Assembly (NCBI GenBank): GCA_043718505.1 | Contig: JAYSVN010000005.1 | Coordinates: forward strand, 14 to 64,013 | Length of the DNA: 64,000 bases | From: Minisyncoccota bacterium | GTDB taxonomy: Bacteria; Patescibacteriota; Minisyncoccia; Phycocordibacterales; UBA9973 | Direction of reading: 5' to 3' | Part shown: piece by piece, positions 8,454 to 55,013 of the stretch | Position numbering within the stretch: the first letter of the stretch is position 1 | Layout: each line of letters opens with the position of its first letter | Program-made: the position numbers and the translations under genes | The notes under the pieces: model-generated | What the model was told of the DNA's origin: nothing | Databases searched by the model: none | What the model saw: only the letters and a program-made list of their open reading frames with translations

Positions 8454-9065
8454 ATGGCACTACGCGATGCTCATCATCAACACAGGATGGAGAGGCTTTC
8501 GCAGATATTCGAAGTACTCCACAAACATTTAGATAATTGCCTTCGAGAAAAAGGAATAATGTACAGTGAAATTAAAGTTATTGGAACTGGTACAACACAA
8601 GTGTTAGCAATCAAGCTGACAAAGTGTCTGCCGGAATATATGAATGCTGTCCGAGCAATTATAAAAAATTTTAACGGAGCATTTGTTATTCAGGAGATTA
8701 CTACAGGATTTTGGATTAGTGTCCATCGCGAATGTATTGATACTTTCAACACAGATACCTATAGTATGGAGAAAAATTCTTTGCACAGTGCTGCTGATGG
8801 ATTAGCGGAGTTCAAATATTTTTTATTTGATGCCGGACTCCGTACAGGTATACATATGAAAAGTCTACTTGTTTCAGGCGATAGTGAAAAAGTAATCTTG
8901 CCTTGTTTGCCGCCGCACGAAAAGAAAATTATGGATTTACTAAAATTCCATGGAATTAATTTTCAAGTAGAATGTATCAGTAAATATCAAAGACTGTGGA
9001 TCGAATCACTGGAAGGTTTTGTAAATCCCCTACCCGGTACAATTCGCAAAAAGCTAAAACATTAA
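8454..9065 (+). CDS. Hypothetical protein (His/Cys-containing, no recognised domain)
   Basis: 203-aa ORF bounded by terminators. No confident family assignment. Confidence 0.4.
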   Translation: MALRDAHHQHRMERLSQIFEVLHKHLDNCLREKGIMYSEIKVIGTGTTQVLAIKLTKCLPEYMNAVRAIIKNFNGAFVIQEITTGFWISVHRECIDTFNTDTYSMEKNSLHSAADGLAEFKYFLFDAGLRTGIHMKSLLVSGDSEKVILPCLPPHEKKIMDLLKFHGINFQVECISKYQRLWIESLEGFVNPLPGTIRKKLKH

Positions 9066-9079
9066 AAAAAATTCACATA

Positions 9080-9108
9080 AAACCAGATTAATAGTCTGGT
9101 TTTTTTTA
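9080..9108 (+). terminator. Rho-independent terminator
   Basis: ACCAGAT-TAAT-AGTCTGGT hairpin followed by TTTTTTTT. Confidence 0.65.
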
Positions 9109-9183
9109 TGTATATCCGACATGTTTGTCGCTCATTAGTCTATGTGCTACAGTTCGAAAAACTGATACTTAAAAATCCATACC

Positions 9184-10290
9184 ATGAAAAAGATCTCAAA
9201 TAGTGTACTTACCGGCGGGCCCTGTGGTGGTAAAACTACATATCTGGCCTATACTCCTCACAAACTTCGCACACTTGGCGATAAGGTGTATGTTATACCT
9301 GAAACCGCTACTACCCTGATTAATGCAGGTTTTGATCCGAGAGATAAAAACTTTCAGAAAGAAGTTCTGAAATACCAATTACAGCAGGAAGAATTTTTCA
9401 GACAAAAGGCTCATAGTGATTCTGCAGAGCAAATTATTATTTTCCACGATCGCGGCATTATGGATGGCCGGGCATATGTTTCCGAAGAAGTCTTTATGGA
9501 AGCTCTGTCTGCTTGCGGACTTTCATTGTCGGATATGCATCGTTACGATAATGTGATTCACCTGGTTTCAGCAGCTATTGGTGCAAGTGAATTTTATTCA
9601 ACTGCAAATAATGCTGCTCGCAGAGAATCTCCAGAAGAAGCAGCTGCTCAGGAAAAATTAGCTCTCAAGGCCTGGCTTGAACATGGCAAAGTTGATGTTA
9701 TTAATAACATCGGAGTTACTTTCGAAGAGAAAATCGAAAAAGCCTATGCTGCCCTTCTTGATGCCCTTGGCAGACCAGTACCCATTGAACGTGAGAAGAA
9801 GTATAAATGTATTAAGATAAATCTTGCACACATACTTAATAAAGAAGGTATTGACTGGCGTAAAATCAAAATTGAGCAGGACTATCTCCGGGTTTCTGAT
9901 ATTAATTTGGAGCGTCGAGTTAGAAAAGTCATCTATGGTGATGGATCAACTGCTTTCTTCTATACTGAGAAGGTTCCCCATGACGTTGGTGCTCGAATCG
10001 AAAGAGAGCGTACGCTTAAAAGTGACGAATATCATCGTTTCCTGCTTGCGGAAAGAGAAGACAATAGCCAGACAATTAAAAAGTCCCGCATTGCTTTTAT
10101 CGCTGATGACCGATATTTTGAATTCGATACTTTTACCGATCCGGCTAAGGAGCATTGCCTTCTTGAGGTGAAGCCGACTATTACGAATCCTTCTGAGAAT
10201 CTCCCAAGTTTTCTTGGTGACGTTGTTCTTGAAGATGTAACTGAAGATGCAAGTTACTATGGCAAAAATATCGCTGCAAGGAATAATTAA
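9184..10290 (+). CDS. Fusion of an AAA_28/NadR-like P-loop ATPase with a C-terminal CYTH (triphosphate tunnel metalloenzyme) domain
   Basis: N-terminal Walker A GGPCGGKTT and ...IIIFHDRG... C-terminal EREKKYKCIKI..IEQDYLRVSD..ERRVRKV..ERTLKSDEYHRFL..KKSRIAFIADDRYFEFDTF...CLLEVKPT follows the CYTH ExExK...RxR...ExE pattern. Confidence 0.55.
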   Translation: MKKISNSVLTGGPCGGKTTYLAYTPHKLRTLGDKVYVIPETATTLINAGFDPRDKNFQKEVLKYQLQQEEFFRQKAHSDSAEQIIIFHDRGIMDGRAYVSEEVFMEALSACGLSLSDMHRYDNVIHLVSAAIGASEFYSTANNAARRESPEEAAAQEKLALKAWLEHGKVDVINNIGVTFEEKIEKAYAALLDALGRPVPIEREKKYKCIKINLAHILNKEGIDWRKIKIEQDYLRVSDINLERRVRKVIYGDGSTAFFYTEKVPHDVGARIERERTLKSDEYHRFLLAEREDNSQTIKKSRIAFIADDRYFEFDTFTDPAKEHCLLEVKPTITNPSENLPSFLGDVVLEDVTEDASYYGKNIAARNN

Positions 10291-10411
10291 AGAGTAATTA
10301 AAATAAAACATGTAACAAATTATTTAAACCGGGTATATTGCCTGGTTTTTTTATTGACTAAATCACAAGAAAACCTAGAATAACGAAAACGATACTTAAA
10401 ACAGCTTTAAA

Positions 10412-10774
10412 ATGAAATATATTACATTATTAATCTGCCTTAGCCTGCCATTTTTGGCTTTAGGGCAAATAGATACAATAATCCCTAACCCGGTTTCAGG
10501 CAGTGATAGCTTAAACACTGATACATTAAGTATAGATACAGGAGCTATTTCTAAGCCAAAACCGAAGTCTAAGCGTGAGTTTTTCGGCGAGGATACTTAC
10601 TACTTGTCATATGAAGATACGGACCTTACGTTTCGAGAGCTTGTTATTAAATATAAGCATTTCCGAGATTCAGGTGTATTTAAGGTTAACTTCCCTAGGG
10701 CAAAGTTTCCCGGCATTTCTGTTGGTTTATGGCGGGAAATCCAGGTAAGTGACAGCATTAAGAATATTAGGTAA
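10412..10774 (+). CDS. Small secreted hypothetical protein
   Basis: N-terminal signal peptide MKYITLLICLSLPFLALGQ. Confidence 0.45.
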   Translation: MKYITLLICLSLPFLALGQIDTIIPNPVSGSDSLNTDTLSIDTGAISKPKPKSKREFFGEDTYYLSYEDTDLTFRELVIKYKHFRDSGVFKVNFPRAKFPGISVGLWREIQVSDSIKNIR

Positions 10775-12401: not shown

Positions 12402-12473
12402 TGCACCCAGAGGGATTCGAACCCCCAACGACAGTTCCGAAGACTGTTGTGATATCCATTTCACCATGGGTGC
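12402..12473 (-). tRNA. tRNA-Arg (anticodon TCG), no encoded CCA
   Basis: Cloverleaf: acceptor GCACCCA/TGGGTGC, D-stem GTGA/TCAC, anticodon stem ACAGT/ACTGT with loop CTTCGGA, T-arm GGGGG-TTCGAAT-CCCTC. Confidence 0.75.
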
Positions 12474-12653: not shown

Positions 12654-12724
12654 GCGGGTATGGTTTAGTGGTAGAACACGTCCTTGCCAAGGATGAGACG
12701 GGAGTTCGATTCTCCCTACCCGCA
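12654..12724 (+). tRNA. tRNA-Gly (anticodon GCC), no encoded CCA
   Basis: Acceptor GCGGGTA/TACCCGC, anticodon loop TTGCCAA, T-loop GTTCGATTC. Confidence 0.8.
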
Positions 12725-15161: not shown

Positions 15162-15232
15162 CGGGGTGTAGTATATCGGTAGTATACTTGTTTTGGGAAC
15201 AAGAGGGCCGGGTTCGATTCCCGGCACCCCGA
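15162..15232 (+). tRNA. tRNA-Pro (anticodon TGG), no encoded CCA
   Basis: Acceptor CGGGGTG/CACCCCG, anticodon stem CTTGT/ACAAG with loop TTTGGGA, T-loop GGTTCGATTCC. Confidence 0.75.
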
Positions 15233-15282: not shown

Positions 15283-15353
15283 GCGGAATTAGTTTAGTGG
15301 CAGAACTGGTGCTTCCCAAGCATCGGACACGGGTTCGATTCCCGTATTCCGCA
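15283..15353 (+). tRNA. tRNA-Gly (anticodon CCC), no encoded CCA
   Basis: Acceptor GCGGAAT/ATTCCGC, anticodon loop TTCCCAA, T-loop GGTTCGATTCC. Confidence 0.7.
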
Positions 15354-17686: not shown

Positions 17687-18841
17687 ATGACAGACCAGAA
17701 ACCCCAGAAACTCCTTGAACAACTAGAAAAAAATCGAGAAAAATTCAAAAAATTTAACCCAAGTGATCAGGCAATGCCAGGCAAAATCTTCGGTATGCCG
17801 CACAGTAAAGATGATGCAATGATGCATGTTTTTCCGATCAATTCTGCCATTACTGTTTCCGGCACTGAAGGTGCTGAAAACGGACCAGACGGGCTCCTTG
17901 AAGGTTCGGCCTGTATTGAATTATTTAATAAAAACTACAGGAGAGATGCATATCTGCCCGGTATGTACTTATTAGAAAAAGATAATGCAATCGGAGATCT
18001 GCATAAGAAAGGAAGAAATATCTTTCTTGAACTCATCAAAACTGACCTGGAAATTGCACGAACTTTTGATGCAGATAAAGTTAATGAGTTTTGCGAATTA
18101 CTCAATAGCCGCGTTGAAAATTGGATAAAAAAGTCTCTTGATGATGGTCACATTGTTGCTGCAATTGGCGGTTGTCACGGATCTATTTACGGAGCAGTTG
18201 CTGCTCATGCAAAAAAGTATAAAGATTTTACTCTCTTGATGATAGATGCACACCTTGATCTTCGCAAAGCCTATGAGGGTGTGACATACTCTCACGCAAG
18301 CGTCATGTGGAACATTCTCAACAATATTCCGGAAGTGAAGCATCTAGTTTGTGTGGGTATTCGCAGTTACGGACTCGATGAATATGATTTTGTCAGAGAT
18401 AACCGTAATCGTGTCAGCGTATATTACGCTGACGATATGCAAGAATCGCAAGACAAAAAATCTGCGAGTTGGCGTGATATTTGTCAGATAATTGTAAATT
18501 CAATTCCAACAGAAGATGTCTACCTGAGTTTTGACCATGATGGTTTTGAAGTTCACTTATGCAGCAGCACAGGTACGCCAGTTCCCGGAGGTCTTTCGAT
18601 GTGGCAGGCAAAAGTGCTCATTGAAACAATTGCCAGAGAAAAAAGAATCATTGGCTTTGATCTCAATGAAATGGTGCCAAACACTCAAGTTGACCGAAAT
18701 AGTGCCGCTGAAATTTTTTACCATATGTATTATTGGACTATGGTGTCACGTGGTGTTTTTCCGGCCGAAGAAGTGGGAAAGGCTCCTGAAAAAACGGGCA
18801 AAGTATTAACAGAGAAAGTAGATAGAGTTTCATTACAATAA
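17687..18841 (+). CDS. Arginase/agmatinase/formiminoglutamase-family ureohydrolase
   Basis: Metal-binding motifs GGCHGS..., MIDAHLDLR, SFDHDGFEV..., GFDLNEMVPN in the arginase-fold order. Confidence 0.7.
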   Translation: MTDQKPQKLLEQLEKNREKFKKFNPSDQAMPGKIFGMPHSKDDAMMHVFPINSAITVSGTEGAENGPDGLLEGSACIELFNKNYRRDAYLPGMYLLEKDNAIGDLHKKGRNIFLELIKTDLEIARTFDADKVNEFCELLNSRVENWIKKSLDDGHIVAAIGGCHGSIYGAVAAHAKKYKDFTLLMIDAHLDLRKAYEGVTYSHASVMWNILNNIPEVKHLVCVGIRSYGLDEYDFVRDNRNRVSVYYADDMQESQDKKSASWRDICQIIVNSIPTEDVYLSFDHDGFEVHLCSSTGTPVPGGLSMWQAKVLIETIAREKRIIGFDLNEMVPNTQVDRNSAAEIFYHMYYWTMVSRGVFPAEEVGKAPEKTGKVLTEKVDRVSLQ

Positions 18842-32238: not shown

Positions 32239-34221
32239 TTAGATAAGTAGTGCAACAATGAGGAGCGCAACAATATTCAAGATCTTAATCATCGGATTAA
32301 TAGCAGGACCAGCAGTGTCTTTGTACGGATCACCAACGGTGTCACCGGTAACAGCAGCTTTGTGAGCTTCTGAACCTTTGCCGCCGAAGTTGCCGAGCTC
32401 AATGTATTTCTTAGCATTGTCCCAAGCGCCACCACCTGATGTCATTGAGATAGCGACGAAGATACCCGTAATGATCGCACCTACAAGTAAGCCACCGAGC
32501 GCCTCAACCCCTAAAGTAAAACCGATAATAATTGGTGCGAGTACTGGAATAAGCGCAGGCAAAATCATTTCGCGTATAGCAGTTTTGGTAACGATATCTA
32601 CAGCGGCACGGTAGTCTGGCTTTTCTGTACCTTTCATGATGCCAGGGTGTTCACGGAACTGTCGGCGAACTTCTTCAACAACAGAGCTGGCAGCGCGGCC
32701 GACAGATTCCATCGACAATGCACCGAAGTAAAACGGCAGGAGTCCGCCGATAAATAAACCGGCGAGCACAGCAGGGTTATCAATCTCGAAACTAAAACCA
32801 GGACCGATTGAATATGTGAAGTCAGCAAAAAGCACAAGTGCCGCGAGTGCAGCTGAACCGATTGCATAACCTTTGGTAACTGCTTTTGTTGTATTACCAA
32901 CAGCGTCGAGTGGATCAGTGATGTTGCGAACAGCCTCACCCATTTCTGCCATTTCAGCGATACCGCCAGCATTGTCAGTAATTGGTCCGTATGAATCGAT
33001 AGTCACGATGATGCCAGCCATTGAAAGCATGGCAACAGCCGCAACCGCGATACCGTAAATACCAGAAAGTTCAAAAGCACCAAGGATTGCAGCGACGATC
33101 ACAATGATCGGAAGCGCAGTTGATTTCATCGAAACAGCGAGACCAGCGATGATATTTGTGCCGTGACCAGTTTGTGAAGCTTTGGCAATACTTTTTACCG
33201 GAGCAAAGCGAGTCGATGTGTAGTATTCAGTAATGACAACGAGGAGCGCGGTAACGACGAGACCGATGAGCGCAGAGAAGTAGAGGTTAAGTGGAATTAC
33301 TCCGCTGACATTTTCAAAAATCGAAAGTGTGAGCGGGTAAAAAACAATTGCGGAAATAATTCCGGAAACCGCGAGGCCTTTGTACAGCGCGCGCATGATG
33401 TTGCCGGACTTTCCGAGTTTGATAAAGAGAATACCGATTATCGAAGCAATAATTGAAACTGCACCGAGAATGAGCGGATAGGTAACAGCTTCGGTTGCGC
33501 CAGTAAAGAGAAGTCCGCCGAGAACCATGGCAGCGATAGAAGTCACCGCGTATGTTTCAAAGAGGTCCGCTGCCATACCAGCACAGTCACCGACATTGTC
33601 ACCGACATTGTCTGCGATCACCGCCGGGTTGCGAGGGTCATCTTCCGGAATACCAGCTTCAACTTTACCGACTAGGTCAGCACCGACGTCTGCAGCTTTG
33701 GTAAAAATACCACCGCCGAGACGAGCGAAGATTGAAATCAGTGAACCACCGAAACCAAGTCCGATAAGTGTGTGAACGTCTTTGGTGATGAAATAGAAAC
33801 CAGCAGTGCCAAGAAGTCCAAGACCAACGACAAGCATACCGGTCACTGAGCCACCACGAACTGCGACTGAGAGCGCTTTCTTGAGACCACCACGAGCCGC
33901 TTCAGCTGTGCGAACATTGGCGCGAACGGAAATGTTCATGCCGATGTAACCAGCAAGTGCCGATAAAACTGCACCAACAAGGAAAGCAATAGCCATTGTC
34001 CAGCCGAGGGAAGGAATAAAGCCGATTACCAAAAAGAGTGCTGCAGCAACATATGCAATCGTTTTGTATTGGCGATTGAGGTAAGCGCTAGCGCCTTCCT
34101 GAATTGCTTTGGCAATTGCACGCATCTTGTCATTGCCGTCAGGCAACTTATTAATGCGATAAGCCACAAAGAGTCCGTATATAATTGCGAGAACTGAACT
34201 CGCGAGGATGAATATTGTCAT
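32239..34221 (-). CDS. hppA: Membrane-bound proton/sodium-translocating pyrophosphatase (H+-PPase)
   Basis: ~15 TM helices with GGG(I/L)[41 protein letters not shown](T/S)DNAGG signatures. Confidence 0.95.
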
Positions 34222-35817: not shown

Positions 35818-36126
35818 ATGGCACCAGAACTCAAACAGTTGCAAAAAAAACCAAAGAGAACAGGATTTTTCGTTCTGCTCCTTATTATTGCCGTTGTTGT
35901 TTTTGCTGCGTACGCATTAACTAAAAAACAAAATAACCTAAGCTCGGTTCAACCTAAAATTTCACAAAGTGAAAAAGAAGAAATCCTTAATTTCATTAAA
36001 AATCCACCACCAGCGATAACTGTTGAGGAAAAAAAGGAGATTTATAAAGAATTAGCAAACTCTAAGAAACCAAAACCTGTCTCCCAACAAGAAAAAGAAG
36101 CTATGTTTGCTGAGCTTAAACAATAA
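35818..36126 (+). CDS. Small single-TM membrane protein, Lys/Glu-rich (hypothetical)
   Basis: TM helix FFVLLLIIAVVVFAAYAL. Stop 1 nt before the next gene. Confidence 0.45.
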   Translation: MAPELKQLQKKPKRTGFFVLLLIIAVVVFAAYALTKKQNNLSSVQPKISQSEKEEILNFIKNPPPAITVEEKKEIYKELANSKKPKPVSQQEKEAMFAELKQ

Positions 36127-36127
36127 T

Positions 36128-38572
36128 ATGCAACGTTTTTTGAAATCAATTTTTATTTTTAGCCTTGTAGCTGTAGGTTTTTTGGCTTTTAGCGCCAAAG
36201 CTGAGGCTGCCGGTAACGTTGTCGGTTATGCATGGAGTGATTCTACTGGTTGGATAAGTATGAACTGCAATAATTCGGCACTTCCTGCAGGCTTTAATGT
36301 TAGTACATGTCCCCCCGGAGCGGATTATGGCGTTACTCTCGATATGACAACCGGTGCTATGAGCGGTTATGGCTGGTCAGATAATGTTGGCTGGATAAAA
36401 TTTGATCCAGTACCACCGAATGCTCCGCTCTACCCAAGTAATCCTAGCAGTCCGACTAAAATAAGTAGCCCAAGTACTCCAGGCATACATGCCGCTGCCG
36501 GCTGGGCACGCTTTTGCAGTAATGTAAACCAGGCAATTTTGCCGGATAATTGTATTGCAAATACAAACGGCATAACTCCTCAAAACGGTGGCTGGAATGG
36601 CTGGGTTTCAATGAAAGGAACTAATCAATCAGGTACTCCTTTCGGTGTTACATATAATGGAACAACAGGTGAATTCGGCGGATTTGCGTGGGGAGGTACA
36701 ACGAATGCTGCTGGCTCAGAAGTTGTCGGTTGGATTAGTTTTACCGGAGTGAAAATCCCTGTTCAAAACTATGTACCTGTTGTCAGTCTCGCTGGCGGCA
36801 CTCCTATTCTCGCAGGTGGCGATACTTTTATTATTCATCGTTGGCAAAATGCTGATAATAATCCCCAGCATCAATTTGTTTCTTGCCAGGCATTTACGAG
36901 TCGTGGTTTGGTTGTTTCGGGTAATTCTGTAGATGTTGCTAGCGGATCAGTAGGTAATTGGGACAGTAGACTAGGGCAGGAAACTTTCCCATTTCCAGTT
37001 CCGCCCGCCCAAACACCATTTCCTTCTACAAATTTTCAAACTGTAAACTTTGTTTTTGCCTATGCTCCAACGACAACCTATTACCTAGCCTGTAGAACAG
37101 CTGGAGGACAATACGCTGCTGATCCATCGAACCCAACAACGCAATGTAATCTATCAACCCCGGCAACTGTTCAAGCTACATGTCCAAGGACTACTGTAGC
37201 AACTCTTCAGCCAAGCTTTCCACTTCAAATATTAGATGAAGCAGTTCCGGGAGTATGGTCAAGCACACAAATTTTTGATGTGCCCGGTAATGTTTCCCTG
37301 CGATGGACATTCCCAGCAGGCGCAAATAATTGCCGAGGCTACGCTGCACAACCAGGTATTACTAACTGGCCATTGCAATCGAATTTGGGAATGCCAAAGA
37401 CACAAGCTGGTTCGCCAGAAACAGGAATTGTTGTTGCTTCACCACGTACAGATTACTTTATGTCCTGTGCTCTTAACGGGCAATTTGTCTATTCGAATAG
37501 AGTAACGGCATTTCCAAAAGCACCAATTACTATTCCTTCATTGGCCGGGCGACCGAATGGCAGCAATGGTGGTTACTCCGCTAATTTTTCAGTAAATACC
37601 GGAGAAAAAGTTCAACTTCGTGCGTCATCACAACTCATTGGTTTTAATAATTGTTCTGCAATTACCAGAACAACAATACAGCCAGGTGGTTGGCAAACTG
37701 GTCTTACGAAACCAGATATTACTGCTCCACTGTATGGCTGGACAGAACCAATTCCAATTAATGTACCGGATAATCCAACAAGATTTGCTATAAGATGCCA
37801 GCATGTTGGAACTGGAGCATGGGTTGAATCAAATGACGTCATTGTCAATGTTAATCAAGTTGTTGTACCAAAACTTACTCTCCAAATTAAACTCAATAGT
37901 CTCCCGGTGGCTGCTGCTAATTATGGTCCGAGTGTCCTAGTTCCTGTTACAGACTCTGTTGCCCTTCACTGGGAAGCGAATGTACCAATTAGTTCTAATA
38001 CTTGTCGAGCATCATCAAGTAGTCCGGGTTCAACACCGAACCAATATTGGAATGGCCCCCTTGTTTTACCGGCACCATTACCCGGAGCAGTAACAACAAC
38101 TCCTATAAATCTAGAACGAGTAGATAATGTTGCAACGACGTATACGATAACGTGCGCACCTCAAGACGGTAGTCCAGATCTAACTGGCTCAGCTATTGCT
38201 ATTTCTTTGCCGCAACTTGGACCGGCCCTTTCAATAGATACTATTCCTGGCTGTGTTAAGACCGACCAGACATTATTTAATCTTGGCTGGAACGCCCTAA
38301 ATCTTTCAGGCGGTACTTGTACACTTTCAAATAATACTGGTGTGACAAACAGTAATGGTGCTACGGTCTGGGATGGTACTACATCTATTAATTCGAACAA
38401 TGCCGGAGCAACAGTGACGAATATGCACATAAACTCAGATACAAGATTTACACTTAGCTGTGTAAGCTCTGCAGGCACTGCTTATGGCCCGATACATCAT
38501 GATGTCGTTATCAACCCAACCTGTACCGATGCGCCACGCAGAAATTGGTTCTTCCAATTCTTCGAGAGATGA
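36128..38572 (+). CDS. Large (814 aa) secreted surface protein with repeated G[YF][AG]WS(D)xxGWI[SK][MF] motifs
   Basis: Signal peptide MQRFLKSIFIFSLVAVGFLAFSAKA. Motif copies GYAWSDSTGWISM, GYGWSDNVGWIKF, GFAWGG...VGWISF. Many Cys, Pro/Thr-rich; no enzymatic motif. Confidence 0.6.
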   Translation: MQRFLKSIFIFSLVAVGFLAFSAKAEAAGNVVGYAWSDSTGWISMNCNNSALPAGFNVSTCPPGADYGVTLDMTTGAMSGYGWSDNVGWIKFDPVPPNAPLYPSNPSSPTKISSPSTPGIHAAAGWARFCSNVNQAILPDNCIANTNGITPQNGGWNGWVSMKGTNQSGTPFGVTYNGTTGEFGGFAWGGTTNAAGSEVVGWISFTGVKIPVQNYVPVVSLAGGTPILAGGDTFIIHRWQNADNNPQHQFVSCQAFTSRGLVVSGNSVDVASGSVGNWDSRLGQETFPFPVPPAQTPFPSTNFQTVNFVFAYAPTTTYYLACRTAGGQYAADPSNPTTQCNLSTPATVQATCPRTTVATLQPSFPLQILDEAVPGVWSSTQIFDVPGNVSLRWTFPAGANNCRGYAAQPGITNWPLQSNLGMPKTQAGSPETGIVVASPRTDYFMSCALNGQFVYSNRVTAFPKAPITIPSLAGRPNGSNGGYSANFSVNTGEKVQLRASSQLIGFNNCSAITRTTIQPGGWQTGLTKPDITAPLYGWTEPIPINVPDNPTRFAIRCQHVGTGAWVESNDVIVNVNQVVVPKLTLQIKLNSLPVAAANYGPSVLVPVTDSVALHWEANVPISSNTCRASSSSPGSTPNQYWNGPLVLPAPLPGAVTTTPINLERVDNVATTYTITCAPQDGSPDLTGSAIAISLPQLGPALSIDTIPGCVKTDQTLFNLGWNALNLSGGTCTLSNNTGVTNSNGATVWDGTTSINSNNAGATVTNMHINSDTRFTLSCVSSAGTAYGPIHHDVVINPTCTDAPRRNWFFQFFER

Positions 38573-38648: not shown

Positions 38649-40043
38649 ATGAAAAAGTTTTTATCACAGTCGTTCAAAGCCGCATTCCTCGCTCTTCTTT
38701 TTGGAGGAATAGTAGTCTTTGCCGCACCTTTTGCTGGGCCAGGTGCTTTTACACCTGCAACTAATAATGCTCCTTTGCCTATAAATGTCAGTATCAGCGA
38801 TCAACAAAAAACTGGAGGCCTTAATGTTGGAAAAGGTCTAGGTGTTGGCCACATGGCAGTACAATCTACAGGTAAAATTCTTGCGACTTCACACATTCAA
38901 TCTCTCGGTAGCTTTATCGGTAGCGGCAATGTCTATGCCGGCATTAATGGTTTTTATGCAGGTTCAGGTATACCACTTACACTTCCAGCAATTCCAGGAG
39001 TTTTGAACGACAGTACGGTTGTTGCCGACAAATTCTGTCTTTCTGGTGGACAGGGTTCAACAGCTGGCTGTGTAAGTATATGGCCAACAGGCAGTACTCC
39101 TGTTAATCCTCTTCCTGTAGGTATTAATAATCATACTCTGCGCTATAACGGCGGAACATCTAAATGGGAAGATAGCGGTGTTATCCAGAATAACGGAACT
39201 GATGCAGCTGTGAATGGAAAACTAACTATTAATTATTCAAATCCTGCTACTCAAGACGGGGTTTATATTAATAACACTGATAGCGCTGGTACAAAAGTCG
39301 CAGTAATAGTCAATAAACCCGCATTTCAATTTTGGAGCAATCCCAATAATGATAATGCCGATCTATGGGTGAGGGACGTACTTTCTACTAGAAAAATTTC
39401 TGCCAGAAGTCTTATAAATAGTTCGGGTGACTATGTTTGCTCTGATCAGTGGGGAACATTATATAATTGTACGGTTAATTTCCCGGCAGTTCCGGTCCCA
39501 CAAGGCTATACCTGTGGACTTTACAATAACCAATCAACTACCCAGGGTTGTCCAAATGGCTCGTCACTTGTTCAGGTATCAGCGAATGGCCAAACAGGAA
39601 CTTGCCGTTACTATGATCCTGCAATAACAACAGCAAGTACAGCTGTACCAAATAACGGTTCCCCTTACTGCTATGCCCCTGGTTCGCTCGGAGCCGCAAT
39701 TGTTCAATTTTCAACAATTCCACAAGATGGCGGCTGTCTGGGTGAAAGGAATGTATATAGAGTTATTATAACCAATGCAATTGGATCAGTAACGTACAAC
39801 TGGACCTTGAATGCAGGCAGTGTCAGTAGTAGCACAGGCGCTCATATAAGTATTACAAGCGGAACTACGTCGTCTAGCATATCTGTAAATGTTATATACG
39901 GAGACCGTGGGGAACCAGCATCTTCCGCAGTTCTTAACCTTTCAATTACTGATAGTGCAGGACGCACTATAACTGACTTCGAGAATATCGCTATTCCAGG
40001 CAGACCACTTTCTGGCAATAGCGGTTTAATCTGTACACAATAA
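38649..40043 (+). CDS. Secreted Gly/Ser/Thr-rich, Cys-containing surface protein (464 aa)
   Basis: Signal peptide MKKFLSQSFKAAFLALLFGGIVVFA. No recognised catalytic motif. Confidence 0.55.
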   Translation: MKKFLSQSFKAAFLALLFGGIVVFAAPFAGPGAFTPATNNAPLPINVSISDQQKTGGLNVGKGLGVGHMAVQSTGKILATSHIQSLGSFIGSGNVYAGINGFYAGSGIPLTLPAIPGVLNDSTVVADKFCLSGGQGSTAGCVSIWPTGSTPVNPLPVGINNHTLRYNGGTSKWEDSGVIQNNGTDAAVNGKLTINYSNPATQDGVYINNTDSAGTKVAVIVNKPAFQFWSNPNNDNADLWVRDVLSTRKISARSLINSSGDYVCSDQWGTLYNCTVNFPAVPVPQGYTCGLYNNQSTTQGCPNGSSLVQVSANGQTGTCRYYDPAITTASTAVPNNGSPYCYAPGSLGAAIVQFSTIPQDGGCLGERNVYRVIITNAIGSVTYNWTLNAGSVSSSTGAHISITSGTTSSSISVNVIYGDRGEPASSAVLNLSITDSAGRTITDFENIAIPGRPLSGNSGLICTQ

Positions 40044-50393: not shown

Positions 50394-53300
50394 ATGATTA
50401 CAAGGGCATTTTTCAATATTCAAAAAAAGACCGCAATAACGCTGCTTATTGCTTTTTTCGCTTTCGGCGAGATGACAGCGGGGTTGCTTATTGCGCCAAT
50501 GGAGGCCAAGGCTGCTTTGCCGCCTGGTTTTGCAACTGAAACAATTGCCGGCGGACTCAATTTTCCAACATCGATGGCTTTCACTCCGGACGGCCGAATT
50601 TTCGTTGGTGAAAAATCTGGATCGATTAGAGTAATAAAAAATGGCGCACTTTTGCCGACACTACTCGTTCAGCTGACTGATATTAATACCTACGCTGACC
50701 GCGGCCTTATCGGTATTGCTGTCGACCCAAACTTTGCGACCAATAAATACATTTACCTTTCTTATACGTATGAAAATACACCGGGTGCAAATCTGACTGC
50801 TGCCAAAACTGCGCGCATCGTTCGCATGACGGTTTCGGGCGACACAGCAAGCGAAGCAACAAAAGTTGTCATCGTTGGAACTGTCGGGGGAAGTGCAGCT
50901 ACTCCATCGTGCAAAAATTATCCTGCCGGTACTGACTGTATTGCGTCTGATTCTTCGTCGCATAGTGCCGGCGGACTTCGCTTTGGTCCTGATGGCAAAC
51001 TGTACGCTACGCTCGGTGATGGTGCGCGTTTTGATGTCGCTGATCCTGATGCACTTCGTGCCCAAAATCTTGACAGCCTCAACGGCAAAATGTTGCGTAT
51101 CAATACTGACGGTACTGCTCCAATCGACAACCCATTTTACAATGGTAATCCAAATGCTAACCGTTCAAAAGTGTATGCATATGGTGTGCGAAATATGTTC
51201 CGCTTTTCTTTCCGTCCAGCAACCGGTGCAATTTATGGCGGAGATGTCGGCTGGGATACATGGGAAGAAATAAACATCATCACGCCTGGCGGCAACTACG
51301 GCTGGCCATGTCGCGAAGGTAATAACCCAACAAGCTACGGTTGTACAGCTACCGGCCACGTCAATCCTGTCTATACATATGTTCATGATCCTGGTTCAGG
51401 CGGTTCAATTACAGCTGGTGTTTTTCCAACAGGTTCTGTCTATCCGGCAAGTTACAATAATAAAATGTTTTTCGGCGACTTCGCCATGAACTGGATGAAG
51501 TTTTTGGAAATGAGCCCGACTGACACATTTGTCGGCACGAGTGATCTCATGCTCTCAAGCGATAATCCAAACGGTCCGGTTGATTACGCTGTCGGTCCGG
51601 ACGGTTACATTTATTTTATTTCAATTTACACCGGTGACATTCGTCGCTTTGTTTACACACTCGGCAACAGACAACCAATCGCGCAAATCGCAGCTACTCC
51701 TACCTCAGGCAGTTTGCCGCTTTCAGTAAGTTTTTCTTCGGCTGGCTCGAGTGATCCTGACGGTAATCCACTTTCATACCTTTGGAATTTTGGAAATGGC
51801 ACGCCGACAAGTAGTGATGCTAATCCAGTGCATGAATATACAGTCGCTGGTACGTACATTGCAACACTTGAAGTGAGCGATGGCCTCGGCGGCACGAATC
51901 TCAAGAGCATCACTATATTTGCCGGAAACAGAGCTCCGACACCAACTATTTCGTCACCGACAAATGGTGCTCTCTATTTCCCAGGGCAAGTCTTTACCGT
52001 TTCGGGAAGTGCAACTGATCCGGAAAACGGCACACTTTCCGGCGCATCACTTACTTGGCGTGCTATTCTCCACCATAATACGCATACGCATGTTTTGCAG
52101 ACAGCGTCAGGCAATTCATTCCAATTCACGGCGCCTGATCACGGTGATCCGGCTGTCTACACGGAACTTGAACTCACTGCAACTGACTCCGGTGGTGTGA
52201 CGGCAAAAACCAGTGTCAATATGTATCTCAACAACGGTATTGCGCCTGGAAGTAACCTCGTCCAAAATCCTTCATTTGAAACTGCGAATCCTGCTTTTCC
52301 AAACTTGCCGCAAAGTTGGAATAACTATAAGTGGGGAACACACACTGCTGCTTTTGCTTATCCTGTTGCCGGACAGGATGGTGCGCGAGCTGCACAAGTC
52401 ACGATATCTGGTTACGTGAGTGGCGACTCAAAGTGGGGACATGATCCGGCGTACGTCGCTGAAAATACAAATTACACTTTTTCTGATTACTACAAATCAA
52501 CAACCACAACCTACCTCGTAGCGGCTGTTAGTTTTGCCAACGACACGATGCAGTACACCCAGCTCGCTACACTTCCGGCCGCCGCAAACTGGACGCAGGC
52601 CAATGCCACTTTCCAGACACCAGTTGGCACGCGTACGCTTGCGATTTATCACTTGATCAATAGCAATGGCTCACTCACCGTCGACAATTACTCCTTGATT
52701 GGTCCGGGGGGAACTACACCACCAGTTACGGGTACAAACCTTGTCGTCAATCATTCGCTTGAAAATGCTAATACTGCCGGTACGTTGCCTTTGAATTGGG
52801 CAAGTAATAAATGGGGAACACACACTGCTGCTTTTGCCTATCCGGTTGCCGGACAAGAAGGCGCCAAGGCTGCCAAAATTACGGTCTCAGGCTACACAAG
52901 CGGGGATGCCAAGTGGTTCTTTAACGATGTCACTGTAACGCCGGGCACAACGTATACTTTTTCTGATTACTATCAATCAACCGCCGCAACTCGTTTAGTT
53001 GCTCGATTTACGACGAGTGCAAATACTATCTCATACCTTGAGCTCGGCGCGTCACTTCCAATCAACGCCGGTTGGTCACAAGCCACACGATCAATTACGA
53101 TTCCGGCTGGCGTGACCAAGCTCACTGTTTTCCATGTGATCGCGGCCAACGGTTCACTGACTGTCGACAATTATTTCCTCTCTGATGGCACGACTCCTCC
53201 AGTTGGCGGCACGAATTTAATTGCCAATGGCTTCATGGAAAATGCTAATGCCGGCAACACTGCACCACTTAACTGGACGCCAACAACAAGCGGCACTGGT

Positions 53301-55013
53301 TTTACAACTACACATACGTATCCAACAACAGGGCAAGACGGTGGCAAAGCCGCCCGCGTCGTGATTTCCGGTATGCCATCAGGTGCTGACGGCAATGCAC
53401 GCTGGCAATTTGATGAAGTGCCGATCCAAACTGGCACTGAATATACCTACGAAGGCTACTACAAAGGAAGCACAATTTCTGACATCATCGGCCGCTACAC
53501 ATTTGCTGATGGCAGCACGCATTTCTTCGGACTGAAGAAAGAAATTCCAGCGGCGACGAACTGGACTTTTGTCACAGGGAAATTTGTCGGGCCGGTCAAT
53601 GTCACAAGCATTACGCTCATGCACTTGATCAGTACAAATGCGTCACTTGAAATCGATAATGCCAAACTCTATGTCAGCGGCACTGGTACGCCAAATGAAA
53701 TAATTCCACCAACACAAAGCTTTACCAATCCGCTCGATGGTCAAACTGTTTCCGGCACGATTACGCTTACCTCTGATGTTCAGGATAATTCCGGTCAGGC
53801 TTGGATTTTCTACGCAGTTGACGGTACGCCCCTCGGACCTGAACAACCTGCGCCGTACAGTCAGCAATGGGATTCAACGACTGTTGCAAACGGAACACAC
53901 ACGCTCAAAGTCACATCGCGTGATGCTGTTGGCAATAACAATCGTCAAATTATTACTGTGAATGTAAATAATACTGTTACGCCGCCAACTGGCAATAATC
54001 TCATTCTCAATCCATCACTTGAAACCGCGAACGGTGCTTTGCCGCAAAACTGGGCAAGCAATAAGTGGGGGACAAATACTGCGACATTTAATTATCCTGT
54101 CGCTGGACAAGAAGGAGCCAAAGCTGCTGAAGTTCAAATGACGGCGTACACGAGCGGCGATGCCAAGTGGATCTTCAACAATGTCGCCGTAACTCCGGGC
54201 AATCAATACACATTCCAAAATTACTACAAAGCTACAGTGCCAACACAGCTCGTTATTCGCTACACGAATGGTAGCGGTGTTGCGAGTTACGTCGGATTTA
54301 CAAGTGTTCCGGCAGCGGCAAACTGGCAAACAGCTAACATGACATTTACACCGCCAGCTGGTACTGCTTCGGTGAGTGTCTTCCATATTATTTCAGCAGT
54401 TGGAACACTCACGGTAGATAACTACTCTCTTGTCGGTCCTGGCACACCCCCTCCGACCGATGTCTGTCCAAATATCGCCGGCAATCAAGCAACAGTTCCA
54501 GCTGGAATGGTCATAGATATTTCAGGCAACTGTGTTACACCTCCACCAAGCGGCGGGACAAACCTTGTCCTCAATCCATCACTTGAAACCGCCGCTGGTT
54601 CGCTTCCGGCTAACTGGGCGCACGATTTCTGGGGGACGCATACTCGTATCTTTACTTATCCAGTTGCCGGCAACGATGGCGCCAAAGCAGGAAAAGTTGA
54701 AATTACCGGGTACACTGACGGTGATGCTAAGTGGGCATTTGACCATGTCACTGTAACTCCGGGTACGACGTACACATTCTCTGATCACTACCAATCAAAT
54801 GTACCGACAACCGTTATCGCCGAATTCAAAACCGCCAGCAACGTTTACAGTTACCAGCCAATCGGCGGTACTGTGCCAGCCTCGGCTGCAGCGTGGAATA
54901 CATTTACCGGCAATGTCACCGTACCAGCCGGCATCCAAAGCATGACTATTTTCCATCTTCTCCAGTCTGTGGGCTGGCTGACGATTGATCAGGCGAGTGT
55001 TGTGGCGCAGTAA
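50394..55013 (+). CDS. Giant (1539 aa) secreted multidomain surface protein: GSDH-like beta-propeller, PKD domain, five tandem CBM_4_9-like modules, one Ig-like domain
   Basis: Signal peptide. ...GFATETIAGGLNFPTSMAFTPDGRIFVGEKSGSIRVI... (soluble quinoprotein glucose/sorbosone dehydrogenase-like propeller). PKD motif SDPDGNPLSYLWNFGNGT...HEYTVAGTYIATLEVSDGLGG. Repeated NLV.NPS.E(T)A......P..W....W(G)THTAAFAYPVAGQ(D/E)GA.AA......Y.SGD.KW modules. Confidence 0.7.
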   Translation: MITRAFFNIQKKTAITLLIAFFAFGEMTAGLLIAPMEAKAALPPGFATETIAGGLNFPTSMAFTPDGRIFVGEKSGSIRVIKNGALLPTLLVQLTDINTYADRGLIGIAVDPNFATNKYIYLSYTYENTPGANLTAAKTARIVRMTVSGDTASEATKVVIVGTVGGSAATPSCKNYPAGTDCIASDSSSHSAGGLRFGPDGKLYATLGDGARFDVADPDALRAQNLDSLNGKMLRINTDGTAPIDNPFYNGNPNANRSKVYAYGVRNMFRFSFRPATGAIYGGDVGWDTWEEINIITPGGNYGWPCREGNNPTSYGCTATGHVNPVYTYVHDPGSGGSITAGVFPTGSVYPASYNNKMFFGDFAMNWMKFLEMSPTDTFVGTSDLMLSSDNPNGPVDYAVGPDGYIYFISIYTGDIRRFVYTLGNRQPIAQIAATPTSGSLPLSVSFSSAGSSDPDGNPLSYLWNFGNGTPTSSDANPVHEYTVAGTYIATLEVSDGLGGTNLKSITIFAGNRAPTPTISSPTNGALYFPGQVFTVSGSATDPENGTLSGASLTWRAILHHNTHTHVLQTASGNSFQFTAPDHGDPAVYTELELTATDSGGVTAKTSVNMYLNNGIAPGSNLVQNPSFETANPAFPNLPQSWNNYKWGTHTAAFAYPVAGQDGARAAQVTISGYVSGDSKWGHDPAYVAENTNYTFSDYYKSTTTTYLVAAVSFANDTMQYTQLATLPAAANWTQANATFQTPVGTRTLAIYHLINSNGSLTVDNYSLIGPGGTTPPVTGTNLVVNHSLENANTAGTLPLNWASNKWGTHTAAFAYPVAGQEGAKAAKITVSGYTSGDAKWFFNDVTVTPGTTYTFSDYYQSTAATRLVARFTTSANTISYLELGASLPINAGWSQATRSITIPAGVTKLTVFHVIAANGSLTVDNYFLSDGTTPPVGGTNLIANGFMENANAGNTAPLNWTPTTSGTGFTTTHTYPTTGQDGGKAARVVISGMPSGADGNARWQFDEVPIQTGTEYTYEGYYKGSTISDIIGRYTFADGSTHFFGLKKEIPAATNWTFVTGKFVGPVNVTSITLMHLISTNASLEIDNAKLYVSGTGTPNEIIPPTQSFTNPLDGQTVSGTITLTSDVQDNSGQAWIFYAVDGTPLGPEQPAPYSQQWDSTTVANGTHTLKVTSRDAVGNNNRQIITVNVNNTVTPPTGNNLILNPSLETANGALPQNWASNKWGTNTATFNYPVAGQEGAKAAEVQMTAYTSGDAKWIFNNVAVTPGNQYTFQNYYKATVPTQLVIRYTNGSGVASYVGFTSVPAAANWQTANMTFTPPAGTASVSVFHIISAVGTLTVDNYSLVGPGTPPPTDVCPNIAGNQATVPAGMVIDISGNCVTPPPSGGTNLVLNPSLETAAGSLPANWAHDFWGTHTRIFTYPVAGNDGAKAGKVEITGYTDGDAKWAFDHVTVTPGTTYTFSDHYQSNVPTTVIAEFKTASNVYSYQPIGGTVPASAAAWNTFTGNVTVPAGIQSMTIFHLLQSVGWLTIDQASVVAQ
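52250..55010 (+). repeat. DNA-level tandem duplication of ~480-560-nt modules encoding the five CBM-like repeats
   Basis: Near-identical stretches, e.g. AAGTGGGGAACACACACTGCTGCTTTTGCTTATCCTGTTGCCGGACAGGATGG (52327) versus AAATGGGGAACACACACTGCTGCTTTTGCCTATCCGGTTGCCGGACAAGAAGG (52808). Module starts ~52255, 52736, 53213, 53996, 54560. Confidence 0.7.

What the first reader, a model, noticed from the sequence alone, without database searches (positions are those of the whole stretch)
9184..10290. AAA_28 (NadR-like) P-loop ATPase fused to a CYTH triphosphate-tunnel domain
The N-terminal half has Walker A GGPCGGKTT and the AAA_28 layout. The C-terminal half follows the CYTH pattern (ExExK start EREKKYK, RVR, ExE, DDRYFEFD). 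CYTH domains (CyaB adenylyl cyclase, thiamine triphosphatase, RNA triphosphatase) act on triphosphorylated substrates. A covalent fusion to a nucleotide/nucleoside-kinase-like ATPase suggests an undescribed nucleotide-processing or signalling enzyme in a reduced genome.
Basis: partly seen in the sequence, partly recalled or inferred. Interest (0 to 1): 0.5.

Follow-up and report, generated by a model that had tools for sequence, protein, structure and literature searches.

The report
NadR-like kinase fused to CYTH domain
This gene really does encode a nucleoside-kinase-like P-loop domain fused to a triphosphate-tunnel (CYTH) domain, but it is an ordinary member of a very large family already recorded in databases (its fly relative is TTD14), and nobody has yet measured what the bacterial versions do.

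Summary

The fusion is not an artefact. A 62%-identical ortholog lies at the same syntenic position, and nearly all relatives are single genes.

It is not undescribed or special to reduced genomes. At least 575 GTDB species and 3,128 clusters (50% identity, E<=1e-30) carry it, JGI already labels relatives 'predicted ATPase/CYTH', and Drosophila TTD14 (2015) has the same architecture.

Bacterial members keep the full catalytic residue set in both domains, so I infer a bifunctional kinase plus triphosphate hydrolase. Context in other lineages points to nucleoside/nucleotide salvage: NrtR regulator and histidine-phosphatase operons, HTH-fused forms next to an ECF transporter component, and rare guanylate-kinase or RelA/SpoT fusions. 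The substrate is unknown. Verdict: new member of a known kind, modest interest.

The parts
9184..10290 (+). Complete ORF, 368 aa plus stop: AAA_28-CYTH two-domain protein
   Evidence: Identical protein P0001 and 62% ortholog P0002. Ranks among the top 150 family representatives at E=2e-120.
9184..9765 (+). N-terminal P-loop kinase-like domain (residues 1-194), Pfam AAA_28, NadR-RNK/thymidylate-kinase fold
9214..9240 (+). Walker A / P-loop GGPCGGKTT (residues 11-19). P13 is the equivalent of TTD14 P75.
   Evidence: G11, G12, P13, G16, K17 are invariant in 47/47 sequences. The TTD14 P75L mutation abolishes GTP binding (PMC4624897).
9301..9303 (+). Invariant E40 at the end of strand 2 ('VIPETAT'). 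It aligns with the Glu of the thymidylate-kinase 'REP' segment.
   Evidence: 47/47. Alignment to P. aeruginosa TMPK. A role in acceptor binding or catalysis is inferred, not shown.
9448..9456 (+). D89-R90-G91 after a hydrophobic strand (Walker B / 'DR' motif of TMPK-type kinases)
   Evidence: D89 and R90 47/47, G91 46/47. Aligns with 'CDRF' of thymidylate kinase.
9619..9621 (+). Invariant R146 in the loop 'NNAARRE' (candidate LID arginine)
   Evidence: 47/47. Lies in a coil region of the model between residues 128 and 149. The LID role is inferred.
9775..10287 (+). C-terminal CYTH / triphosphate-tunnel domain (residues ~198-368), NeuTTM-like
9787..9801 (+). ExExK motif E202-R-E204-K-K206 (metal-site-2 glutamates plus lysine)
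   Evidence: E202 42/47, E204 41/47, K206 42/47; the exceptions are mainly the eukaryotic clade. Role taken from PMC4641920.
9883..9885 (+). Y234, equivalent of NeuTTM Tyr-28 (proposed catalytic dyad)
   Evidence: 46/47. Mapped through the alignment. The dyad is described in PMC3440374.
9916..9924 (+). R245-V-R247, triphosphate-binding RxR
   Evidence: 46/47 each. Aligns to NeuTTM R39/R41.
9970..9972 (+). K263, equivalent of NeuTTM Lys-52 (proposed catalytic dyad)
   Evidence: K 43/47, R 4/47..
10000..10008 (+). E273-R-E275 acidic-patch ExE
   Evidence: E273 43/47, E275 39/47.
10081..10089 (+). K300-S-R302 basic pair (NeuTTM K85/R87 equivalent)
   Evidence: both 47/47..
10120..10128 (+). E313-F-D315 ('FEFD')
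   Evidence: E313 42/47, D315 47/47.
10165..10173 (+). E328-V-K330 in the last tunnel strand. E328 is the invariant metal-site-1 glutamate. K330 replaces the usual second Glu (a metal-site-2 ligand).
   Evidence: E328 47/47. Position 330 is E in 38/47 and K only in the window protein, its ortholog P0002 and two others. Roles from PMC4641920.
10237..10260 (+). C-terminal 'VTEDASYY' segment, shared with NeuTTM ('VTEDKRYKN'); plug-helix region with a conserved Tyr
   Evidence: V352, T353 45/47, Y358 42/47. Aligned to NE1496.
9079..9111 (+). Terminator-like hairpin plus T-run ending the upstream gene, so the target has its own transcription start region
   Evidence: a consensus scan only, not proof of function.
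10326..10356 (+). Terminator-like hairpin plus T-run 36 nt after the stop codon

Best explanation
The gene encodes a soluble two-domain enzyme of the widespread 'NadR/Ttd14-type AAA_28 + CYTH' family.

SHOWN
- The N-terminal half has the fold and signature residues of small-molecule P-loop kinases: NadR ribosylnicotinamide kinase, thymidylate kinase and deoxynucleoside kinases.
- The C-terminal half is a NeuTTM-like triphosphate-tunnel domain. Its basic tunnel residues, ExExK, the Tyr/Lys dyad and the invariant metal-1 glutamate are all present.
- The two halves are predicted with high confidence as one compact unit.
- The fusion is conserved from bacteria to insects.

INFERRED
- The N domain binds ATP or GTP at GGPCGGKT and transfers the gamma-phosphate to a nucleoside- or nucleotide-like acceptor. 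D89/R90 would act as in the thymidylate-kinase DR motif, E40 on the acceptor side, and R146 in a lid loop.
- The C domain binds a triphosphate group (inorganic triphosphate or a nucleoside-triphosphate-like compound) in its tunnel and hydrolyses it with divalent metal, as NeuTTM does.
- The two activities serve one nucleoside/nucleotide salvage or homeostasis route, or the tunnel gates the kinase.

MOST SPECULATIVE
- Pathway identity. Contexts elsewhere point to pyridine-nucleoside/vitamin salvage (NrtR regulator, CobC-like phosphatase, ECF transporter component next to HTH-fused forms, as with NadR-PnuC) or to guanine-nucleotide metabolism (guanylate-kinase and RelA/SpoT fusions; TTD14 binds GTP).

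In this Parcubacteria-type genome the gene is a stand-alone accessory gene in a variable slot.
For: Domain identity.

Kinase-type residues invariant in 47/47 sequences: G11, G12, P13, G16, K17, E40, D89, R90, R146. 'CDRG' aligns with the thymidylate-kinase 'CDRF', and E40 with the TMPK 'REP' Glu.

CYTH catalytic set in bacterial members: E202, E204, K206, Y234, R245, R247, K263, E273, E275, K300, R302, E313, D315, E328. Roles come from PMC4641920 and PMC3440374. The eukaryotic clade has lost exactly the acidic patch, which shows these glutamates are kept by selection in bacteria.

Single compact unit: pTM 0.91.

Fusion real: syntenic ortholog; the top 150 representatives are nearly all full-length.

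Context:
- NrtR-like regulator + His_Phos_1 directly upstream in 6 Bacilli-type loci, and His_Phos_1 adjacent in 8 loci in three different arrangements.
- An ECF S component is adjacent to 7 of 14 HTH-fused members against about 1 of 60 others, Fisher p~1e-5.
- Fusions to guanylate kinase, RelA_SpoT, or a second CYTH.
- TTD14 binds GTP through this P-loop.
Against: - No biochemical data exist for any bacterial member; literature searches found none.
- The window locus has none of the informative partners within 64 kb. The gene is monocistronic, so pathway inference is borrowed from distant relatives at 35-40% identity.
- Each context covers only about 10% of the 74 loci, and some of those loci are from related genera.
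- The guanylate-kinase and RelA_SpoT fusions are single cluster representatives and were not checked for gene-calling errors.
- K330 replaces one of the three metal-site-2 glutamates in this protein and its ortholog, which might lower or change CYTH activity.
- In the analogous plant TTM1 protein the tunnel is catalytically dead and seems regulatory, and fly TTD14 behaves as a GTP/lipid-binding trafficking factor.
- I could not inspect model coordinates, so the geometry between the two active sites is unknown.
Confidence: 0.55

Rival explanations
1. Non-catalytic switch/sensor. The P-loop domain is a GTP-binding switch and the CYTH tunnel only binds a phosphorylated ligand (polyphosphate, PPPi, phospholipid head group). 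This would match what is reported for fly TTD14 and proposed for the plant TTM1 tunnel.
For: [quoted passage not shown] The AtTTM1 tunnel is catalytically incompetent and may gate the kinase. K330 replaces one metal-2 ligand in the window protein.
Against: Bacterial members, including this one, keep the ExExK glutamates, the E273/E275/E313 acidic patch, the invariant E328 and the NeuTTM Tyr/Lys dyad. The eukaryotic clade and AtTTM1/2 have lost the glutamates. The N domain keeps the kinase-type DR motif and E40 in 47/47 sequences.
Confidence: 0.2
2. Cyclic-nucleotide signalling enzyme. The CYTH domain is a class IV (CyaB-type) adenylate/nucleotidyl cyclase, and the P-loop domain supplies or regulates its substrate.
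Against: The closest solved relatives by sequence and structure are triphosphatases: NeuTTM at 5e-18, then SaTTM and ygiF. The NeuTTM dyad and C-terminal VTxDxxY segment are shared. Only two bacterial CYTH proteins have shown cyclase activity, and NeuTTM and CthTTM have none. No cNMP-binding effector recurs among the neighbours.
Confidence: 0.08
3. Accessory defence or conflict module, suggested by its place in a variable genomic slot and by HTH-XRE-fused relatives.
For: The gene is present in only 2 of 5 closely related genomes, in the Xth...CCA-enzyme interval that also holds unrelated unknown ORFs. The HTH of fused relatives resembles PADLOC HTH models.
Against: No PADLOC hit for the AAA_28-CYTH body or for the two flanking small ORFs. 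The family is single-copy and housekeeping-like in thousands of lineages, including animals and fungi. Recurrent partners are metabolic: NrtR, phosphatase, ECF component. GC content is the same as the window, 0.41 vs 0.42. A rough tree places the gene with other CPR sequences.
Confidence: 0.05
4. Assembly or frameshift artefact joining two separate genes.
For: Stand-alone AAA_28 proteins (P0117, P0119) and stand-alone CYTH genes exist.
Against: The identical protein occurs on an independent Logan contig. The 62% ortholog is one 370-aa gene at the syntenic position. Nearly all of the best 150 family representatives match the full-length profile, apart from a few fragments such as P0333, P0353 and P0380. 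The model packs the halves confidently. P0117 is followed by a metallo-beta-lactamase gene, not a CYTH gene.
Confidence: 0.01

Closest known systems
TTD14 (TRPL translocation defect 14, Drosophila CG30118) and its invertebrate/fungal orthologs
   Same: Same two-domain architecture and order. Collinear alignment over 99% of the query at 30-33% identity. Identical Walker A GGPCGGKT, including the proline whose P75L mutation abolishes GTP binding. The basic tunnel residues, D315 and E328 are conserved.
   Different: The eukaryotic clade has N- and C-terminal extensions (420-481 aa). It has lost the CYTH acidic patch (E202->R/G, E204->K, E275->K/R, E313->Q, position 330->Y), so its tunnel is probably non-catalytic. 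Its known role, endosomal trafficking of the TRPL channel with PtdIns(3)P/PA binding, has no bacterial counterpart.
NeuTTM (Nitrosomonas europaea NE1496, PDB 2FBL/3TYP), a specific inorganic triphosphatase; also CthTTM, SaTTM, YgiF
   Different: NeuTTM is a ~150-aa stand-alone protein. Here the domain is fused after a kinase-like domain, and the window protein has Lys (K330) in place of the second Glu of the last-strand ExE. Activity is untested here.
NadR ribosylnicotinamide-kinase (RNK) domain (PDB 8x7f, 6gye), founding member of Pfam AAA_28
   Different: No NMN-adenylyltransferase domain, and no HTH in the window protein. Sequence similarity to NadR is too low for HMMER against the PDB. A CYTH domain follows instead. 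The RNK substrate is not established here.
Plant TTM1/TTM2 (PDB 7z67): uridine/cytidine-kinase-like P-loop domain + TTM tunnel + membrane anchor
   Same: Same logic and order, a P-loop small-molecule kinase followed by a tunnel domain, packed tightly. Foldseek aligns the whole model to it (E 1.3e-8). Both modules are genetically required in AtTTM2.
   Different: The kinase belongs to a different family (PRK/UCK, PF00485), so this is an independent fusion at 12% identity with a different domain orientation (rmsd 21 A). The plant tunnel has Gln in place of the ExExK glutamates and is inactive. Plant proteins are tail-anchored to mitochondria.

Membership tests
NadR/Ttd14-type AAA_28 + CYTH two-domain family (TTD14 family) | N-terminal AAA_28 domain above Pfam's gathering score | tested here: met
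   67 bits vs a 27-bit cutoff, E=3e-18, residues 8-169.
NadR/Ttd14-type AAA_28 + CYTH two-domain family (TTD14 family) | Walker A GGPCGGK(S/T)T with the conserved proline (TTD14 P75) | tested here: met
   Residues 11-19; G11, G12, P13, G16, K17 are 47/47. P75L data from PMC4624897.
NadR/Ttd14-type AAA_28 + CYTH two-domain family (TTD14 family) | Collinear full-length homology to TTD14 orthologs and to bacterial members | tested here: met
   30-33% identity over 99% of the query to insect TTD14 (P0110-P0116) and 33% to Spizellomyces. The protein scores E=2e-120 against the family profile.
NadR/Ttd14-type AAA_28 + CYTH two-domain family (TTD14 family) | [quoted passage not shown] | not testable with these tools
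   Reported only for fly TTD14.
CYTH / triphosphate tunnel metalloenzyme superfamily | Eight-stranded beta-barrel tunnel fold | tested here: met
   The model has eight long strands between residues 205 and 329. It matches NE1496, SaTTM, PH1012, AtTTM3, YgiF and CyaB. Tunnel closure itself could not be inspected because no coordinates were available.
CYTH / triphosphate tunnel metalloenzyme superfamily | N-terminal ExExK motif | tested here: met
   E202-R-E204-K-K206, conserved in bacterial members.
CYTH / triphosphate tunnel metalloenzyme superfamily | Basic residues lining the tunnel (RxR, K, KxR) | tested here: met
   R245, R247, K263, K300, R302; 43-47 of 47 conserved.
CYTH / triphosphate tunnel metalloenzyme superfamily | Invariant last-strand glutamate coordinating metal 1 (AtTTM3 E169 / YgiF E160) | tested here: met
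   E328, 47/47. Role from PMC4641920.
CYTH / triphosphate tunnel metalloenzyme superfamily | Three-glutamate acidic patch for metal 2 (ExExK glutamates plus the second Glu of the last-strand ExE) | tested here: inconclusive
   E202 and E204 are present, but position 330 is Lys in this protein and its ortholog (Glu in 38/47). [quoted passage not shown]
CYTH / triphosphate tunnel metalloenzyme superfamily | Match to Pfam PF01928 above its threshold | tested here: not met
   No hit for this sequence even at E<=1; 23 of 47 relatives do hit. Profile-to-PDB and structure comparisons compensate.
CYTH / triphosphate tunnel metalloenzyme superfamily | Divalent-metal-dependent action on a triphosphate substrate | not testable with these tools
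   Needs an enzyme assay.
NadR (trifunctional NAD regulator/NMNAT/RNK) | N-terminal HTH and central NMN adenylyltransferase domain | tested here: not met
   Pfam finds only AAA_28 in the window protein and the protein starts 10 residues before the P-loop. It is therefore not a NadR; only the RNK-like fold is shared.
Plant TTM1/2-type kinase-TTM proteins | PRK/uridine-kinase family (PF00485) kinase domain, degenerate ExExK, C-terminal membrane anchor | tested here: not met
   No PF00485 hit; ExExK is intact; the protein ends at the CYTH domain with no extra C-terminal segment. It is an analogue, not a member.
Class IV adenylate cyclase (CyaB/AC-IV) | Closest similarity to CyaB-type CYTH and cyclase activity | tested here: not met

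The most novel reading that the evidence does not exclude
Bacterial AAA_28-CYTH proteins are the catalytically active ancestors of the eukaryotic trafficking factor TTD14. They would be an uncharacterised bifunctional enzyme class in which a NadR-RNK-like kinase and a NeuTTM-like triphosphatase act together on a nucleoside/nucleotide or vitamin precursor. The HTH-fused forms would work as NadR-like regulator-kinases coupled to a dedicated ECF transporter, and other forms would be tied to guanine-nucleotide/alarmone metabolism. The CPR copy, with its E330K change, would be one variant of this.
Probability: 0.3. Interest if true: 0.55.

Novelty: new member of a known kind. Interest (0 to 1): 0.3.

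Why it matters
For this window, little: it is a typical member of a family already present in databases, so the claim of an undescribed fusion does not stand.

For the family, somewhat more. It has thousands of sequence clusters across bacteria, fungi and invertebrates, no assigned biochemical activity, and only one genetically studied member (TTD14). The comparisons here give testable leads:
- Bacterial members retain complete catalytic sets in both domains, while the animal and fungal clade has lost the CYTH acidic patch.
- HTH-fused members pair with an ECF transporter component, as NadR pairs with PnuC.
- Bacilli-type members sit in NrtR/phosphatase operons.

Pfam's CYTH model also misses about half of the family, so CYTH surveys under-count this architecture.

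Tried and rejected
- Direct Pfam, NCBIfam and single-sequence PDB searches gave no CYTH hit for the window protein. The family profile and the structure model were needed.
- PADLOC found nothing for the protein or its small neighbours, so the defence reading was rejected.
- Rfam found no riboswitch or other RNA element near the gene, only four tRNAs in the window.
- The partner families seen elsewhere (His_Phos, NrtR, ECF-S) and a second gene copy were sought among window ORFs; none were found.
- Split-gene check: P0117 is a genuine stand-alone AAA_28 followed by a metallo-beta-lactamase gene, not a split fusion.
- Literature searches for AAA_28+CYTH, COG3911/COG2954, and CYTH + P-loop + fused + kinase found no study of bacterial members.
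- The founding CYTH paper (PMC138802) is not held, so its statement on kinase fusions is cited second-hand through PMC8233210.
- The afdb50 fold library was unavailable.
- Thiamine triphosphatase was considered and set aside. The W/YxRxR aromatic position that marks ThTPases is Glu (E243) here.
- Bacteroidales MatE/MurB neighbours were treated as lineage synteny, not functional linkage.
- The rest of the HTH/ECF-S loci gave no further substrate clue.
Full report
OBSERVATION

Window 9184-10290 (+) is an intact ATG-initiated ORF of 368 codons plus stop. A terminator-like hairpin with a T-run lies upstream of it (9079-9103) and another lies 36 nt downstream (10326-10348). The gene therefore appears monocistronic, though these are consensus matches only. 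Its G+C content (0.41) equals that of the window (0.42).

- GGPCGGKTT at residues 11-19
- E202-R-E204-K-K206
- R245-V-R247
- E273-R-E275
- DDRYFEFD at residues 308-315

N-TERMINAL DOMAIN

Pfam AAA_28 matches residues 8-169 at E=3e-18, 67 bits against a 27-bit cutoff. An AlphaFold2 model built with a 47-sequence alignment is very confident (mean pLDDT 94.5, pTM 0.91).

Across the 47 aligned sequences, G11, G12, P13, G16, K17, E40, D89, R90 and R146 are invariant. In the profile-to-PDB alignment, 'CDRG' aligns with the thymidylate-kinase 'CDRF', and E40 aligns with the Glu of the 'REP' segment. From established knowledge of TMPK/dNK-type kinases, the DR motif and an acidic residue after strand 2 belong to the phosphoryl-transfer and acceptor site. 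This suggests a kinase rather than a plain NTPase. That step is an inference.

C-TERMINAL DOMAIN

Pfam's CYTH model does not hit this sequence even at E<=1. NCBIfam and a single-sequence PDB search are also empty. The evidence for CYTH comes from elsewhere:
- PF01928 hits 23 of the 47 aligned homologs.
- A profile of the family hits the solved CYTH protein NE1496 (NeuTTM; 2FBL/3TYP) at E about 5e-18 over the entire domain.
- The model shows eight long beta strands between residues 205 and 329.
- Pairwise BLASTP of the C-terminal half against NE1496 is modest (24% identity, E=1e-5) but in register through each motif.

Residue roles can be assigned from the two-metal TTM mechanism (PMC4641920) and the NeuTTM work (PMC3440374):
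- E328 is the invariant metal-1 glutamate (47/47).
- E202 and E204 are metal-2 ligands.
- R245, R247, K300 and R302 bind the triphosphate.
- Y234 and K263 correspond to the proposed NeuTTM Tyr-28/Lys-52 dyad.

All of these are conserved in bacterial members. There is one deviation. Position 330, the second Glu of the last-strand ExE and the third metal-2 ligand, is Lys in this protein and its ortholog. The aromatic residue that marks thiamine triphosphatases (W/YxRxR) is Glu here, which argues against that specificity.

IS THE FUSION REAL?

Yes.
- The identical protein occurs on an independent Logan contig.
- A 62%-identical ortholog is a single 370-aa gene at the same syntenic position: PNPase, NYN, S15, Xer, Xth, MsrA, the gene, then the CCA-adding enzyme on the opposite strand.
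- Nearly all of the best 150 family representatives match the full-length profile.
- Short AAA_28-only hits such as P0117 are genuine stand-alone proteins, not split versions.

HOW COMMON, AND IS IT KNOWN?

They come from Clostridia, Lachnospiraceae, Bacteroidales/Prevotella, Bacilli, Saccharibacteria, Paceibacterota and other CPR groups, Polyangiaceae and Flexilinea.

A profile search of 1.84 billion cluster representatives gave 3,128 hits at E<=1e-30. The window protein itself ranks among the top 150 at E=2e-120, so it is a typical member.

Homologs extend to fungi and insects, where the protein is TTD14. The 2015 TTD14 paper explicitly shows a P-loop domain plus a CYTH domain. [quoted passage not shown]

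JGI already names relatives 'predicted ATPase/CYTH domain-containing protein', while NCBI calls them 'AAA family ATPase'. A CYTH review passage credits the 2002 founding paper with noting fusions to nucleotidyl kinases (PMC8233210); I could not read the 2002 paper itself.

The architecture is therefore known and widespread. No biochemical study of a bacterial member was found.

ORGANISM AND LOCAL CONTEXT

The window's PNPase is 78-81% identical to proteins labelled Candidatus Pacebacteria/Parcubacteria, which supports the CPR attribution.

In three close relatives (PNPase 77-79% identical) the Xth...CCA-enzyme interval lacks the gene. One has MsrA directly followed by the CCA enzyme; the others hold unrelated unknown ORFs. 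Here the gene is an accessory gene in a variable slot.

A rough neighbour-joining tree, without support values, places it inside a clade holding 9 of the 10 CPR-labelled sequences, so it is not an obvious recent import from Firmicutes or Bacteroidetes. PADLOC finds nothing for it or its two small neighbours. No riboswitch lies nearby.

FUNCTIONAL LEADS FROM RELATIVES

Among 74 GTDB loci no neighbour is universal. Three patterns do recur.

1. NrtR/phosphatase operons. Six Bacilli/Tenericutes-type loci have an NrtR-type regulator (Nudix + NrtR_WHD), then a CobC-like histidine phosphatase, then the gene, with 0-39-nt gaps between the phosphatase and the gene. The phosphatase is adjacent in 8 loci in three different arrangements, including Erysipelotrichaceae and Saccharibacteria.

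2. HTH-fused forms and an ECF transporter component. Members with an N-terminal XRE-type HTH have an ECF-transporter S component immediately adjacent in 7 of 14 loci, against about 1 of 60 for the rest (Fisher p about 1e-5; the loci are not all independent). This resembles NadR, an HTH plus AAA_28 kinase that works with the PnuC transporter. The resemblance rests on my knowledge of NadR, not on a test here.

3. Rare domain fusions. These are guanylate kinase + AAA_28 + CYTH + CYTH, RelA_SpoT + AAA_28 + CYTH, and CYTH + AAA_28 + CYTH. They are single cluster representatives that I did not verify on their contigs.

Together with GTP binding by TTD14, these patterns point to nucleoside/nucleotide (pyridine or guanine) salvage or homeostasis. 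None of the partner families occurs in the 64-kb window.

A CONTRAST INSIDE THE FAMILY

The eukaryotic clade has replaced the acidic patch (E202 to R/G, E204 to K, E275 to K/R, E313 to Q, position 330 to Y) while keeping the basic residues, D315 and E328. The analogous plant TTM1 tunnel likewise has Gln in place of the ExExK glutamates and is catalytically inactive. Retention of the full set in bacteria therefore argues that the bacterial tunnel is catalytic.

MECHANISM PROPOSED

- Shown: the domain folds, the conserved residue sets, the compact two-domain model, and that the fusion is real.
- Inferred: the N domain binds ATP or GTP and phosphorylates a nucleoside/nucleotide-like acceptor. The C domain binds and hydrolyses a triphosphate group with divalent metal, as NeuTTM does. 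The two act in one route, or the tunnel gates the kinase as proposed for AtTTM1.
- Unknown: the substrates, the effect of K330, and the geometry between the two sites.

COMPARISON AND VERDICT

The protein is a member of the NadR/Ttd14-type AAA_28 + CYTH family, and every sequence and fold criterion for that family was met. Its C domain belongs to the CYTH superfamily, with two caveats: Pfam does not detect it and one metal-2 ligand is Lys.

It is not a NadR, because it has no HTH and no NMNAT domain. It is not a plant TTM1/2-type protein, because the kinase belongs to a different family, ExExK is intact and there is no membrane anchor. It is not closest to CyaB cyclases.

Novelty: new member of a known kind. 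Interest 0.3. The value lies in the family-level leads, not in this locus.

Noticed in passing
window 8454-9065 (+) and 10412-10774 (+); compare L002, L085, L086, L087: The interval between exonuclease III/MsrA and the CCA-adding enzyme is a variable slot in this Parcubacteria-type lineage. The 203-aa ORF upstream of the target (no Pfam or PADLOC hit) is absent from the ortholog locus. The 120-aa downstream ORF has a signal-peptide-like N-terminus and no hits. Relatives carry other unknown ORFs there, or nothing.
   Followed up: partly
window 22055-23698 (+): Ro60-like protein (TROVE + Ro60 vWA domains). Bacterial Ro60 homologs usually come with a Y-RNA-like partner (from my own knowledge, not tested here), but the Rfam gathering-threshold scan found none in the window.
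   Followed up: no
window 32239-34221 (-): Membrane-bound proton-pumping pyrophosphatase (H_PPase, 909 bits).
   Followed up: no
window 50394-55013 (+) and 55079-56854 (+): A 1539-aa protein with glucose/sorbosone-dehydrogenase beta-propeller, PKD and Big_7 domains, followed by a 591-aa Kelch-repeat protein. This looks like a large surface or secreted protein pair.
   Followed up: no
window 17687-18841 (+) and 18966-20078 (+): Adjacent arginase-family (agmatinase-like) and deoxyhypusine-synthase-like genes, a possible polyamine module.
   Followed up: no
window 36107-38572 (+) and 38649-40043 (+): Two large ORFs (821 and 464 aa) with no Pfam hit at E<=1e-5.
   Followed up: no
P0103, P0110, P0115, P0116 (eukaryotic TTD14 clade) in alignment A1: The eukaryotic clade has lost the CYTH acidic patch (ExExK glutamates, E275, E313, position 330) while keeping the basic tunnel residues, D315 and E328. 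The TTD14 tunnel is therefore probably a binding module, not an enzyme.
   Followed up: partly
P0257 (791 aa), P0361 (710 aa), P0378/P0340/P0386 (~550 aa): Rare extended architectures: guanylate kinase + AAA_28 + CYTH + CYTH; RelA_SpoT + AAA_28 + CYTH; CYTH + AAA_28 + CYTH. They were not verified on their contigs.
   Followed up: partly
L026, L027, L029, L030, L039, L070, L075: HTH(XRE)-fused AAA_28-CYTH genes form a two-gene module with an ECF-transporter S component (PF07155; below NCBIfam cutoffs for the folate and riboflavin types), reminiscent of NadR-PnuC. The substrate is unknown.
   Followed up: partly
L006, L012, L036, L043, L056, L074 (also L052, L063, L022): Apparent operon of NrtR-like Nudix regulator, CobC-like histidine phosphatase and AAA_28-CYTH in Bacilli-type MAGs. 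A MYG1/UPF0160 gene lies directly downstream in L012 and L056. In Saccharibacteria L022 the phosphatase sits beside a separate stand-alone CYTH gene on the opposite strand.
   Followed up: partly
family-wide (alignment A1): Pfam PF01928 detects the CYTH domain in only 23 of 47 family members and not in the window protein. Domain-architecture surveys based on Pfam CYTH therefore under-count this fusion.
   Followed up: yes
window 12402-12473 (-), 12654-12724 (+), 15162-15232 (+), 15283-15353 (+): Four tRNA genes. Two of them flank the 5' end of the CCA-adding-enzyme gene region.
   Followed up: no
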